Below, one piece after another: positions 15,001 through 18,000 of a stretch of 20,639 nucleotides of DNA. Numbering within the stretch: position 1 is the first letter of the stretch; every line of letters begins with the position of its first letter. The position numbers were made by a program. The stretch is from IMG/VR virus record IMGVR_UViG_2648501143_000006; one strand, 5' to 3'. This stretch comes from a virus. Lineage: Duplodnaviria > Heunggongvirae > Uroviricota > Caudoviricetes.

Positions 15001-18000
15001 CAGAACCCTAAAACAGTCTGAACCTGTTCGATGCGACATTGCGCTTCAATGAGCTGGATGTTGGTCATTTCGCACTCTCCACATCGATTAAACCGATATC
15101 TATCAGGGAGGTAACTTTTTGTAGCCAGCTATTGATTACTGTCGCCTGTTCCCCTCCCACCGAGGGAACAATCTCATTCATCACATGAACCAGACCTGTG
15201 CGCGCTCTGGTAAGCCGTTCAGTCGCGCAATCTGCGGGAGTGAATGTGTCTGGATATGGCTCTTCACGCCCCAGCAATGATTCAATTTCCAGCTCACACG
15301 GATGACGATAAATTAAGTTGATATTCATTTTTCACCCCCAAGAATTACCTGCTCGGCACGGGCATCGTTAACCAAAGATGAGCACGCTTTAATCGCATCC
15401 ACGACATCAGCAGCGTCCATTTCTTCAGCCGAAAGACTGACAGCAACCAGGACAGCCGCTGCTTGCTCGATTAATTGAAGTGCGGACGTAAGGCGAGGGG
15501 TATTAATTGAGTTATTCATTGGTTGCCCCCGTTTTTACTGGCATTTCGCCACCTTCCAGCAGGAAATGAACGTCACGAACGGCGAGATCCAATATCGCGA
15601 GTAACGCCTTCAGTTTTTCGTCTCGTGAGGGAGAGTTGCTCACCAGAATGTCATTAATCACTTCTGTCAGTGTGATGATCTGGCTTGTGCGTTCGAGGGG
15701 GTCCATATGCACATCGTAGGTTTTAATCATGTGCCACCTCCATGCGGATACGACCAGCAAAAAAGCAGACGTGATCGCGCACCAGAGAACGGCGAGCATC
15801 GCGTTCAGACTCGGCAGCAATATGATGAATTTTGGCGGTAATTGTCGGGCAATCGCGGCGAACTGCGGCGATAATCCAGATAAATTGCGGTTTTTGGGTA
15901 GGGGTAGTAGCCAGCATGTGGCAGCCTCCTTGATTGATGGTTTATAGCCACCGCCCAAGAGACCAATCTTGCTGGCGGTGGACTGTACGGAGTTGGCCTT
16001 ACTGGCAATCAAGGAAACCAGCCTACCCGAAGGTAGCCCCATACAGCCCACCATTGATAAGGTGTGCGTGTGCGCCGATACAAAAAAAGACGCTGGCGCG
16101 TCATGTATCGCCTCGATTGTCAGCGGGAGGCCAATCCCGGCACCCGTTTTATGAGGTGCCTTATAACCATAAACCGTGTTGCCGCATAACGGCAAGCTCT
16201 TTTTTATGGACTCCGAAAACTCACTATTGGAAGCACCAGATGCACAATACATCGCGCTCATTTCGTTAACGTCACGCGCATGGACGAAGGTTTTTGTGGA
16301 GTCACTACGCGAGAAGAGAAAGCCATCTACGACCAGAAATTCTCTGGCGCAGCCGCTGACCTTCTCAACGCTAACACCATCGACCGTGTTTTCTGACATA
16401 GTTAAGGCATCCGCTCCTACCACCAGCAAATGATAAACTTTGCTTGTATCTGCTGTATTAATGCCTGATTTTGCCGTCATATTGCTGGATTTTGGCGACA
16501 TGCCAGCCAGTGAAAATATCTTCTTCTGGGCGGTTAGCATTTGTTAACCTCCGCGAACTCCTTCATGAAACGTGCCAGCGGTTGTACGCATGGCGATTGA
16601 TACCCGTCGCGATAAAACGTCACTCGGTTGTGAGACACGCTTTCGACAGTAACGAGTGCTCCGTGGGCATCTTTGTAGCGTTTTTGAGGTTGTGGTGTTC
16701 CTGTCGGCTTAAACATGGACCGCCTCCAGACGCTTGGCGAGCCAGCGTTGCGACAGGCGGGTGAGTTCTCCTTTGCGCTGCTCATATTCCATGCCCATAT
16801 CAATTAACGTGATATTGGTGCTTTCGAGATATGAGAGGTGCTCAAGCTGTTCTGCGTTCATATGGTCGCGAGGTTCGCCAGAATAGCCATTTATCCGCGC
16901 CCACTGCTTAGCAGTTAGCCCACCAAGAACGATACGAGAAATCATATTGCTCTCGTTTGTGTAGTGGTGTTGCTGCGTCGTTTTCCCCTGCTCGGCACGG
17001 GCCATGTTCAGCGCATCGCACATTGGCTTAAAGTTGTTTGCGGCACTGATACGGGCTTTTAGCTGGCGACGATAGCGGGCGGCGATTTCAGGAACGCTAC
17101 GCTGTAATTCTTCCTCGCACTGGATGAAATAACGGCGGATAGCGCGCCCCTGATCATTGCGTTCGATCATTGCCAGTTCTTTCGCCATTCCGACACTTAA
17201 CAGATAGTCTTTGCCGGGTCTGCCAGACTGCTTAATCTTGCTGTAAGCCGCGCCATTCGGGATTTTCCCCAAATTTGGGGAAATAGTTTTATGGACTGAG
17301 TAATCGTGCCCAATGGTGAAGTCATATTCAGAGATGCGATCAGTGATCCATGTAGAGAAGTCTTTTCCCACGCCCAACGCTTTGTGTAACGCTTTTGCGC
17401 TAACAATATTGGTTTCACGCCCACCGATATGGCCAGGAATAACCGGGACAATTGCGGCAAATTCATTACCGTTAATTGTACCCAGAGAGGCGTTCAGATG
17501 AGGGGCAGCCTCAGAAATTAATCTGCTTTTTTCGATGTTCATTTTCAGTCTCCGTTAGGCGGCGTTAAACGCGTTCGGGTAGAGTTTCAGAATGTCGGCA
17601 ATTTCCTGCTGAGAAAGTCCGTTGTGATCATTTATGTTCGCAAGATGGTTAACATGAGTGATCACTTTCAGAACATCACCACGGCAGGAGAAACGGTAGC
17701 GAAGGTGTGTTCCGATACCATCAGGATTTTTTTCGTCGATACGCTCCAGAGTGATTCCAAGCTGGCGTTCTAACTCTGTTGCATAGTTACGACCAGAAGA
17801 CAGACGGCAGTAGCGAAGAATGTCATTTTCTGTCCATCCCTCTATACCAGTACGCAGCATATAGACTCTGGCACGATGCTTTTTCGGTGTGCGCTTTGGT
17901 GCTTGAAGGGATTTTGTCAGGGGCGTAACATCAGATACGCGAATATCTGAATTAGCCGCCTGTAATGGGCGGTTTTTCTTTTCCATCAGGCCACCTTCCC

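What the first reader, a model, noticed from the sequence alone, without database searches (positions are those of the whole stretch)
15512..16540. Icd-like gene embedded in another frame of a 1029-nt open reading frame
The ORF starting at 16540 has no in-frame stop until 15512, yet a 64-aa Icd-like ORF with a perfect AAGGAGG RBS occupies a different frame at 15723-15917. A hairpin (CCACCGCC...GGCGGTGG, 15941-15974) precedes that RBS. The long ORF reads as junk where it overlaps the Icd-like gene and then re-enters a plausible 73-aa protein. This could be true overprinting, a frameshift (programmed or a sequencing error), or a pseudogene.
Basis: seen in the sequence. Interest (0 to 1): 0.45.

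Follow-up and report, generated by a model that had tools for sequence, protein, structure and literature searches.

The report
P4-type eta-like ORF overprinting icd
The 1029-nt reading frame is the satellite-phage P4 "eta" arrangement, a frame kept open across two regulatory RNA genes and a small toxin-like gene, here shifted one base out of frame with that gene; it is a conserved variant of a known system, not an error.

Summary
ORF 16540..15512 (-) is 342 codons, and the 64-aa Icd-like gene (15917..15723) lies inside it in the +1 frame.

The middle of the long ORF is not ordinary coding sequence. It holds two Rfam-significant RNA genes on the same strand: isrK-like (16159..16083) and C4/CI antisense RNA (16058..15971). 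The Pfam "Ash" match is their translation.

Phage P4 has the same layout. Its eta ORF runs from the stop of the upstream gene across isrK-like and CI RNA, and ends as Kil, which is 44% identical to this Icd-like protein.

Among 155 unique related loci, 75 are nested in frame like P4. The other 79 are +1 like this window, and 78 of those have no stop anywhere in icd in that frame. By contrast, 59 of the 75 in-frame loci do have a stop there.

Substitution patterns show protein-level selection only in the icd frame and in the 72-aa downstream gene.

Best reading: the frame is kept open so that ribosomes coming from the upstream operon can ride through the immunity region, as shown for P4 eta. 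Sequencing error, pseudogene decay and programmed frameshifting are not supported.

This is a new variant of a known kind.

The parts
15512..16540 (-). Long eta-like ORF (342 codons). It is a patchwork of leader, isrK-like RNA, C4 RNA, icd read in the +1 frame, and the in-frame downstream gene.
   Evidence: PGAP calls it 'ash family protein' in a 99.9% identical genome. It is homologous in layout to P4 eta. The frame is open in 153 of 155 unique related loci.
16534..16552 (-). Start region of the long ORF. GGAGG lies at 16552-16548, the ATG at 16540, and the ATG overlaps the TAA stop of the upstream DUF4222 gene (ATGCTAA, 16540-16534).
   Evidence: Sequence read. The first ATG of the long ORF overlaps the stop of an upstream ORF of at least 50 aa in at least 104 of 149 unique upstream regions. 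P4 eta has the same overlap with vis/ORF88 (PMC10111431).
16277..16392 (+). Fragment of a P22-like small-terminase gene lying antisense inside the leader part of the long ORF. It includes a pac-like 22-mer at 16286-16307.
   Evidence: The P22 pac sequence is taken from PMC5261728.
16083..16159 (-). isrK-like RNA element, the counterpart of the P4 seqA region. It carries a1-like TTGGCCT (16134-16128), b1-like CAATCGAGG (16119-16111), and an intrinsic terminator hairpin with T-run (16102-16083).
   Evidence: Rfam RF01394 at 65 bits against a gathering score of 50. The terminator scan finds the hairpin. The same element is found in P4 and in 18 of 19 other genomes. The a1 and b1 sites were read from the sequence.
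15971..16058 (-). C4/CI-type antisense RNA. The 12-nt loop TTTCCTTGATTG (16017-16006) is complementary to the icd SD region. The junction AAGGCCAAC (16000-15992) is complementary to the a-sites.
   Evidence: Rfam RF01695 at 79.2 bits against a gathering score of 45. Compensatory changes occur in 17 of 27 pairs across 71 sequences. Loop and target co-vary across 27 loop variants.
15948..15981 (-). Its 5' arm (15981-15974) is also the 3' strand of the C4 closing stem. Its loop carries a2-like TTGGTCT (15966-15960).
   Evidence: 5 of 8 pairs compensatory in 66 sequences.
15925..15936 (-). b2-like target CAATCAAGGAGG, which includes the Shine-Dalgarno sequence of icd.
   Evidence: 12-nt duplex with the cognate C4 loop, G-U pairs allowed.
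15723..15917 (-). Icd-like / P4 Kil-like gene (64 aa), in the +1 frame relative to the long ORF.
   Evidence: NF033153 at 71.7 bits. It is 44% identical to P4 Kil, E = 4e-11. Variation is concentrated at its third codon positions (0.77 against 0.23 and 0.27).
15512..15730 (-). Downstream 72-aa gene. It has its own GGAGG (15741-15737) and ATG (15730), overlaps the end of icd by 8 nt, and is in frame with the long ORF.
   Evidence: annotated separately as WP_001426173.1; third-position excess; replaced by at least 5 unrelated genes in other loci, always in the same register.

Best explanation
The window holds the immunity and leader region of a P4-like satellite island. The gene order is int, int-alpA RNA, alpA, antA, DUF4222, this region, small genes, then a P4 alpha-like primase. 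The long ORF is the counterpart of P4 eta.

**What is shown here**
- The ORF starts on the stop codon of the upstream gene.
- It runs across an isrK/seqA-like element with its intrinsic terminator.
- It then crosses the C4/CI antisense RNA gene and the two C4 target sites, one of which covers the icd Shine-Dalgarno sequence.
- It continues across the Kil/Icd-like gene.
- In P4 and in about half of the relatives, the Kil/Icd gene is the in-frame end of this ORF.
- In this window and the other half, one base less between C4 and the icd ATG puts the long ORF in the +1 frame of icd. It therefore reads through icd and merges in frame with the next gene.

**What is inferred (from P4, Forti et al. 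1999 as summarised in PMC10111431, and from P1 c4/icd)**
- In the quiescent state, a promoter just upstream of isrK makes isrK-like and C4 RNA.
- C4 pairs with the icd leader and blocks icd translation. The untranslated RNA is then terminated, probably by Rho in the C-rich 5' half of icd, so the replication genes stay off.
- When the upstream operon is transcribed, ribosomes pass from DUF4222 into the long ORF. They translate through the terminator, C4, its targets and icd, which makes transcription insensitive to immunity.
- What selection preserves is an uninterrupted frame (ribosome transit), not the peptide. That is why the frame can differ between relatives and reads as junk.
For: **Layout matches P4**
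- The Rfam isrK and C4 hits lie inside the ORF on its strand. The same pair lies inside P4 ORF 8812..8168, whose last 65 aa are Kil.
- P4 Eta carries Phage_ASH at aa 37-161 and phage_ICD_like at aa 161-208 in one frame. In the window the same two profiles hit two different frames. The two halves of phrog_6928 split the same way.

**The frame is kept open**
- All 20 first loci are open in the Ash frame from 224 to 1097 nt upstream of C4 through icd.
- Among 155 unique loci, 75 are in frame and 79 are +1. In the +1 class, 78 of 79 are stop-free in icd. In the in-frame class only 16 of 75 are stop-free in that +1 frame, with stops at 11 different positions. Fisher p = 2e-26, not corrected for phylogeny.
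- Synonymous resampling predicts 53% of the +1 class to be open, but 98% are.
- The isrK-to-C4 distances of 98, 101, 125, 128, 140 and 185 nt are all equal modulo 3.

**The peptide itself shows no sign of selection**
- There is no 3-periodicity of variation in the leader, isrK or C4 parts. Periodicity is strong in the icd frame.

**RNA-level mechanism**
- C4 shows structural covariation.
- The C4 loop and the icd SD region co-vary across 27 specificities.

**Translational entry and termination site**
- The start of the long ORF overlaps the upstream stop.
- The most C-rich, G-poor stretch of the transcript is the 5' half of icd, with C/G = 1.9.

**Controls**
- In a P1-like phage and an Stx phage the same frame is closed 53-89 nt upstream of C4.

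**Literature**
- PMC10111431.
Against: - There is no direct evidence here that the long ORF is translated, or that a Rho-dependent terminator lies in icd. Both are carried over from P4 and P1.
- No convincing sigma-70 promoter was found upstream of isrK by the simple scan.
- The association statistics are not phylogenetically corrected, and many loci are close relatives.
- One +1 locus (L128) does carry a stop in icd, and 16 in-frame loci are open in the +1 frame. This is expected if the switches are recent, but it also fits drift.
- Weak protein-level constraint on the Ash or leader parts could escape the entropy test.
- The RNA genes themselves constrain sequence, and that partly explains the openness within them.
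Confidence: 0.7

Rival explanations
1. Dual coding in the strict sense. The +1 peptide across icd, and the Ash and leader parts, would be a functional protein whose sequence matters, for example a Bro-network regulator. The ORF would then be open because the protein is needed.
For: The ORF is long and conserved, has its own SD and ATG, and matches Pfam Phage_ASH and several PHROG 'transcriptional regulator' families. P4 Eta is a translated product (PMC10111431).
Against: - No third-position excess appears in the long-ORF frame in the leader, isrK, C4 or icd-overlap parts.
- In the overlap, the most variable position is the second codon position of the long ORF.
- Across relatives the same DNA is read in frame or in +1, giving unrelated peptides.
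- The leader is highly variable with many indels and contains an antisense terminase fragment.
- The Ash profile coincides with the two RNA genes.
Confidence: 0.12
2. By-product with no function. The long ORF is never translated, and its openness comes from the conserved RNA sequences plus chance and shared ancestry.
For: The RNA genes are strongly conserved and happen to lack stops in one frame. Many loci are close relatives. In phages the frame across C4 is also open.
Against: This does not explain several observations.
- A median of about 125 stop-free codons upstream of isrK in variable sequence.
- Indels between isrK and C4 that are always multiples of three.
- The absence of the third spacer class.
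- The start/stop overlap with the upstream gene.
- The 78/79 against 16/75 contrast.
- The excess over synonymous resampling.
- The closure of the frame just upstream of C4 in the two phage controls.
Confidence: 0.1
3. A decaying pseudogene. A P4-type Eta was broken by a 1-nt deletion between C4 and icd and is on its way to being lost.
For: Relative to P4-type Eta the window is frameshifted exactly at the Ash/Icd junction. PGAP flags an 'ash' pseudogene in one relative.
Against: The +1 class comprises 79 unique sequences and 42 distinct stop-free Icd proteins in several genera, and it has accumulated essentially no stops. The icd gene and the downstream gene remain under purifying selection.
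Confidence: 0.05
4. Programmed -1 ribosomal frameshifting joins the Ash frame to the Icd frame and produces a P4-like Eta.
For: The two frames differ by one base. An A-run (CCC AAA AAC) lies 25-33 nt into icd, and an SD-like AAGGAGG lies upstream.
Against: - The heptamer is not canonical (C AAA AAC).
- It depends on a Lys codon that is Asn (AAT) in most relatives.
- The SD-like element is about 28 nt away rather than about 10.
- The +1 frame staying open to the end of icd and beyond would be unnecessary if ribosomes left it.
Confidence: 0.02
5. Sequencing or assembly error in this window.
For: A single-base difference in a spacer would be enough to produce it.
Against: The same register is found in complete RefSeq genomes, GTDB genomes, IMG/VR and metagenome contigs, 79 unique sequences in all.
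Confidence: 0.01

Closest known systems
Phage P4 immunity region: nested genes eta and kil, CI RNA, seqA/seqC (Forti et al. 1999, J Bacteriol 181:5225, as summarised in PMC10111431)
   Same: - Both have a P4-type integrase island context with an AlpA/Vis-like gene upstream and an alpha-like primase downstream.
- The long ORF starts on the stop of the upstream gene.
- The ORF contains an isrK/seqA-like element and a C4/CI RNA.
- It contains a 64-65 aa Kil/Icd-like gene, 44% identical, with NF033153 matching in both.
- The Kil/Icd stop and the next gene's ATG overlap by 8 nt in both.
- The CI/C4 loop is complementary to the SD region of kil/icd.
   Different: - In P4, kil is the in-frame end of eta. 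Here the long ORF is +1 relative to icd, reads through it as an unrelated peptide, and ends at the stop of the next gene, so the nested in-frame gene is the 72-aa gene rather than icd.
- The leader is longer and carries an antisense terminase/pac-like fragment.
- AntA and DUF4222 genes lie between alpA and the long ORF.
Phage P1/P7 immI operon: c4 antisense RNA, icd, ant1/ant2 (Citron & Schuster 1990; Biere et al. 1992; Riedel et al. 1993; cited from my own knowledge)
   Same: - C4-family RNA lies upstream of an Icd-family gene.
- There are two target pairs, a and b, upstream and downstream of the RNA, with b2 covering the icd SD ([c4-a1b1 hits], 45).
- Blocking icd translation is expected to cause premature termination.
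   Different: - In a P1-like phage the frame across C4 is closed 53 nt upstream of C4, so there is no long upstream ORF and no operon reading in.
- The gene after icd here is not an antirepressor. The AntA-family gene is upstream.
Gifsy-1 isrK-orf45-anrP locus of Salmonella (PMC4825925)
   Same: - An isrK-family element with a leaky intrinsic terminator.
- A short ORF follows whose translation is needed for the next gene by coupling. That paper notes its nucleotide sequence is conserved while its amino-acid sequence varies.
   Different: - In Gifsy-1, IsrK acts as a trans-activator of orf45 translation.
- The paper describes no C4 RNA and no ORF spanning isrK.
- The downstream gene there is an antirepressor.

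Membership tests
P4 eta/kil/CI immunity module | A CI/C4-type RNA gene lies inside the long ORF, on the same strand | tested here: met
   RF01695 at 79.2 bits, 16058..15971. P4: 8507..8420 inside ORF 8812..8168.
P4 eta/kil/CI immunity module | A seqA/isrK-like target element lies upstream of CI, inside the ORF | tested here: met
   RF01394 at 65 bits, 16159..16083. P4: 8692..8615. PMC10111431 states that the isrK and C4 profiles detect seqA and CI relatives.
P4 eta/kil/CI immunity module | A Kil/Icd-like gene of about 65 aa lies downstream of CI with its own SD | tested here: met
   NF033153 matches the window protein and P4 Kil. BLASTP E = 4e-11.
P4 eta/kil/CI immunity module | [quoted passage not shown] | tested here: met
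   ATGCTAA at 16540-16534. The same overlap is found in at least 104 of 149 unique upstream regions. Coupling itself is inferred from the overlap.
P4 eta/kil/CI immunity module | kil is the in-frame terminal part of eta (nested genes) | tested here: not met
   The long ORF is in phase +1 relative to icd. 75 of 155 relatives meet this feature and 79 do not.
P4 eta/kil/CI immunity module | Translation of the long ORF suppresses Rho-dependent termination (timm) for transcripts from the upstream promoter | not testable with these tools
   Only indirect evidence is available: conserved openness and a C-rich, G-poor 5' half of icd.
Pfam PF10554 Phage_ASH | HMM match above the gathering score | tested here: met
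   50.6 bits against 26, aa 124-219 of the long ORF.
Pfam PF10554 Phage_ASH | Evolves as a protein domain (codon-position signature of purifying selection) | tested here: not met
   Entropy by codon position is 0.61/0.65/0.55 for isrK and 0.78/0.70/0.74 for C4, against 0.27/0.23/0.77 for icd in its own frame. The match coincides with the two RNA genes.
Rfam RF01695 C4 antisense RNA | Covariance-model score above gathering, and a structure supported by covariation | tested here: met
   Compensatory changes occur in 17 of 27 pairs across 71 sequences.
Rfam RF01695 C4 antisense RNA | The loop is complementary to the ribosome-binding site of the downstream gene | tested here: met
   The cognate duplex averages 9.9 nt against 5.5 nt for non-cognate pairs, over 27 loop variants. 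The window duplex is 12 nt.
NCBIfam NF033153 phage_ICD_like | HMM match above the cutoff | tested here: met
   71.7 bits against 25.
Programmed -1 ribosomal frameshift site | A conserved slippery heptamer X XXY YYZ with a stimulatory element at the right distance | tested here: not met
   The only candidate is C AAA AAC within icd. It is not conserved (Lys to Asn in most relatives) and the SD-like element is about 28 nt upstream.
P1 immI operon (c4-icd-ant) | An antirepressor gene lies immediately downstream of icd and is coupled to it | tested here: not met
   The downstream gene is an unannotated 72-aa protein with no Pfam, NCBIfam or PHROG match. The AntA-family gene is upstream at 17542..16709.

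The most novel reading that the evidence does not exclude
The long ORF is a sequence-independent 'ribosome track'. Selection keeps it free of stops so that translation from the upstream operon overrides RNA-based immunity, but it does not care which frame is used. Lineages therefore flip between an in-frame (Eta = Ash-Kil fusion) morph and a +1 morph.

In the +1 morph the Icd/Kil toxin domain is no longer appended to the late-mode product, and the next gene's protein is made as a C-terminal fusion instead.

A corollary is that the Pfam Phage_ASH 'protein family' is essentially the translation of two non-coding RNA genes.
Probability: 0.5. Interest if true: 0.55.

Novelty: new variant of a known kind. 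Interest (0 to 1): 0.42.

Why it matters
It provides a natural experiment for the P4 model that translation of eta, rather than the Eta protein, defeats immunity-specific termination. The same DNA is read in two different frames in sister elements, and whichever frame is in use stays open.

It also has practical consequences for annotation. In most of the roughly 480 complete E. coli genomes carrying this icd allele, the pipeline calls one 342-355 aa 'ash family protein'. It omits the Icd-like gene, the 72-aa gene and both RNA genes.

It suggests that a curated protein family, Phage_ASH, owes its conservation to RNA genes.

Finally, the co-varying pairs of C4 loop and SD region give a catalogue of at least 27 immunity specificities for P4-like satellites.

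Tried and rejected
- tblastn of the Icd-like protein against 50,697 phage records found nothing at E <= 1e-3. P4 Kil was recognised only after fetching P4 directly.
- The sigma-70 consensus scan gave no credible promoter upstream of isrK, so the PLE-like promoter is inferred only.
- Anchoring the isrK-to-C4 distance on the T-run was noisy. I rely instead on the Rfam coordinates of 22 loci.
- The first literature query was swamped by immunology papers. Forti et al. 1999 (PMC94026) is not held, so it is cited through PMC10111431.
- The codon-position test on the downstream gene across all loci was uninformative, because the gene is replaced by unrelated genes. It was redone within homologous groups.
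- Considered and rejected: sequencing error, pseudogene, programmed frameshift (see the rival explanations).
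Full report
**1. Observation**

The minus strand carries an ATG-initiated ORF of 342 codons from 16540 to 15512. The previous in-frame stop is at 16546-16544.

Inside it, in another frame, lies a 64-codon ORF at 15917..15723. AAGGAGG sits at 15931-15925, 7 nt upstream of its ATG. This small protein matches NCBIfam NF033153 'host cell division inhibitor Icd-like' at 71.7 bits against a cutoff of 25.

The hairpin exists. Its arms are at 15981-15974 and 15955-15948, slightly different from the coordinates given.

**2. What the long ORF is made of**

Pfam matches only residues 124-219 (Phage_ASH). 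That stretch coincides with two Rfam hits above gathering score on the same strand:
- isrK at 16159..16083 (65 bits);
- C4 antisense RNA at 16058..15971 (79.2 bits).

The isrK hit ends in an intrinsic-terminator hairpin with a T-run at 16102-16083.

The first 123 codons have no family match. They run antisense across a 116-nt fragment of a P22-like small-terminase gene.

Codons of roughly 208-272 are the icd gene read in the +1 frame.

The last 72 codons are a separate gene with its own GGAGG and ATG (15730). That ATG overlaps the end of icd by 8 nt. One RefSeq genome annotates this gene separately as WP_001426173.1.

**3. Context**

The surrounding genes are all on the minus strand:
- P4-type integrase;
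- int-alpA RNA;
- a 326-aa protein;
- AlpA;
- a 143-aa protein;
- AntA-family protein;
- DUF4222;
- the long ORF;
- several small genes;
- a primase with Zn-ribbon, Toprim and DUF5906 domains;
- P22-like ejection-protein genes.

This is a P4-like or PICI-like satellite island.

**4. The P4 precedent**

In P4 (NC_001609), Rfam finds C4 at 8507..8420 and isrK at 8692..8615. Both lie inside ORF 8812..8168. The last 65 residues of that ORF (MATTLTPSHPEF...) are 44% identical to the window's Icd-like protein, with pairwise E = 4e-11.

That P4 ORF carries Phage_ASH at aa 37-161 and phage_ICD_like at aa 161-208 in a single frame. This is eta with its nested gene kil.

PMC10111431 summarises the P4 system as follows, citing Forti et al. 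1999:
- A constitutive promoter inside eta gives transcripts that terminate early through CI/seqA RNA interactions and yield CI RNA.
- Kil can be translated on read-through.
- Its translation prevents termination.

Two junctions match between P4 and the window. The window's long ORF starts on the stop of the upstream gene (ATGCTAA, 16540-16534, with GGAGG 7 nt upstream), just as P4 eta starts on the vis stop. The 8-nt overlap between the icd stop and the next gene's start is also the same.

**5. Comparative test of the frames**

Nineteen loci from other genera were found through the Icd-like protein (63-98% identity). All 19 carry C4 upstream of icd, and 18 of them also carry isrK; L020 has no isrK hit.

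In all 20 loci, including the window, the frame that reads C4 as 'Ash' is open from 224-1097 nt upstream of C4 through the whole of icd.

I then added 160 loci from IMG/VR and metagenomes, which gave 155 unique sequences:

| Class | Unique loci | No stop in icd in the +1 frame | At least one stop in the +1 frame |
|---|---|---|---|
| In frame with icd (P4 type) | 75 | 16 | 59 |
| +1 relative to icd (window type) | 79 | 78 | 1 (L128) |
| +2 (a 1x-coverage contig) | 1 | n/a | n/a |

- The stops in the in-frame class fall at 11 different positions. Fisher p = 2e-26, not corrected for relatedness.
- The +2 frame has stops in icd in 149 of the 155 unique loci.
- Spacer lengths between C4 and the icd ATG fall only in the two residue classes that give phase 0 or +1.
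- Given each Icd protein, synonymous re-encoding with the family's own codon usage would leave the +1 frame open in 53% of +1-class genes, but 98% are open. For in-frame loci the expected and observed values are both 19%.
- The distance from the isrK start to the C4 start takes six values (98, 101, 125, 128, 140, 185 nt), all equal modulo 3.
- The long ORF's first ATG overlaps the stop of an upstream ORF of at least 50 aa in at least 104 of 149 unique upstream regions.
- In two phage controls, a P1-like phage and Stx phage phi191, the same frame across C4 is closed 53 and 89 nt upstream of C4. Those phages have no operon reading into the module.

**6. Which frames are under protein-level selection**

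Column entropy by codon position was measured across 151 unique sequences.

| Segment | Entropy at long-ORF codon positions 1 / 2 / 3 | Reading |
|---|---|---|
| icd overlap | 0.23 / 0.77 / 0.27 | Peak is at icd third positions, which are second positions of the long ORF |
| isrK | 0.61 / 0.65 / 0.55 | No periodicity |
| C4 | 0.78 / 0.70 / 0.74 | No periodicity |
| Pre-isrK leader | 1.11 / 1.10 / 1.17 | No periodicity |

The downstream 72-aa gene shows third-position excess within each homologous group: 3/5/10, 30/23/45 and 41/23/54 variable sites. In other loci it is replaced by at least five unrelated genes, always in the same register.

So icd and the downstream gene are real proteins. The rest of the long ORF shows stop avoidance but no detectable amino-acid constraint.

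**7. RNA mechanism**

- The C4 fold is supported by compensatory changes in 17 of 27 pairs.
- Its 12-nt loop (TTTCCTTGATTG, 16017-16006) is complementary to CAATCAAGGAGG (15936-15925), which includes the icd SD.
- Across 27 loop variants, the cognate loop/SD duplex averages 9.9 nt against 5.5 nt for non-cognate pairs.
- A second complementarity links the C4 junction AAGGCCAA to TTGGTCT (15966-15960) and TTGGCCT (16134-16128). A b1-like CAATCGAGG lies at 16119-16111. These were read from the sequence.
It shares its 5' arm with the C4 closing stem. It is conserved, with 5 of 8 pairs compensatory.
- The most C-rich, G-poor part of the transcript is the 5' half of icd (C/G = 1.9). That is where a Rho-loading site would be expected from P4 timm and from P1 icd (the latter from my own knowledge).

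**8. Verdict**

The long ORF is the eta counterpart of a P4-like satellite, in a +1 variant.

- *Shown:* the homology of layout, the RNA genes, the antisense/target covariation, the conserved openness in whichever frame is used, and the lack of a protein-type substitution pattern outside icd and the downstream gene.
- *Inferred:* that the ORF is translated from upstream transcripts, and that this overrides C4-dependent, Rho-dependent termination.

Sequencing error, pseudogene decay and programmed frameshifting are not supported. No conserved slippery site exists.

I found no description of the out-of-frame morph in the literature I could search. The P4 in-frame arrangement, and the presence of C4 and isrK hits inside satellite 'Bro' genes, are known (PMC10111431).

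**9. Annotation consequence**

The rows with at least 95% identity to the window's icd region were sampled across E. coli complete genomes. Most carry only 'ash family protein' under the match, and only a minority carry 'Icd-like protein'. A 99.9% identical genome annotates the whole 1029 nt as one ash family protein.

Noticed in passing
window 16277-16392 (+ strand sense); pac-like 22-mer at 16286-16307: A 116-nt fragment (about 85% identity) of a P22-like small-terminase gene lies antisense inside the leader of the long ORF. At the place homologous to the P22 pac site GAAGATTTATCTGAAGTCGTTA (sequence from PMC5261728) the window has GAAGGTTTTTGTGGAGTCACTA, 16 of 22 identical. A stretch of about 59 nt almost identical to the terminase gene follows about 10 nt downstream. 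Pac-like 22-mers with at most 7 mismatches occur within 900 nt upstream of icd in 58 of the 173 related loci scanned (P4 left out), in either orientation. The satellite may carry a helper-type packaging site.
   Followed up: partly
window 4624-9282 (-): The island's distal part encodes P22-like ejection and injection proteins: P22_gp7 (8150-8827), Inj_translocase/gp20-like (6729-8150), DUF2824 (8821-9282) and a 701-aa protein with no Pfam match (4624-6729). Together with the pac-like fragment, this points to a P22-like helper.
   Followed up: no
window 19305-19371 (-): An int-alpA RNA motif (RF02996, 54 bits) lies between the integrase gene and the next gene. It was also found in 5 of the 19 related genomes.
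   Followed up: no
E. coli RefSeq genomes (for example L001 = NZ_CP122868.1; hits H61-H100): PGAP usually annotates the whole long ORF as 'ash family protein' and omits the Icd-like gene and the 72-aa gene. Only a minority of genomes with the same icd allele have 'Icd-like protein' annotated.
   Followed up: partly
L162, L173 (related loci): In these loci the C4 loop does not match the SD-region target downstream of it (duplex of only 5-6 nt against the usual 8-12). They look like recombinants between immunity types, which would make icd translation insensitive to the element's own C4.
   Followed up: no
L103 (metagenome contig OHPG01001396.1): This locus has an Icd protein identical to the window's and the same C4-to-ATG spacing as +1 loci. 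One extra base upstream of C4 moves the long ORF into the icd frame, and it is still open for 666 nt upstream. This C4 type is stop-free in two frames (L003).
   Followed up: partly
L128, L096, L120 (related loci): These are the exceptions to the rule. L128 has a stop in the +1 frame 73 nt into icd. L096 has a frameshifted, truncated icd. L120, from a 1x-coverage assembly, is in phase +2. They may be decayed copies or assembly errors.
   Followed up: no
phage records H31-H60; L183 (P1-like vB_EcoM-673R5), L184 (Stx phage phi191): The same isrK-C4 module (69-86% identity) occurs in 177 phage records, mostly Stx-converting lambdoid phages. There it sits directly upstream of, and in frame with, Rha/Ant-type regulator genes or icd. 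phi191 also has an sRNA-Xcc1 Rfam hit at L184:2523-2606.
   Followed up: partly
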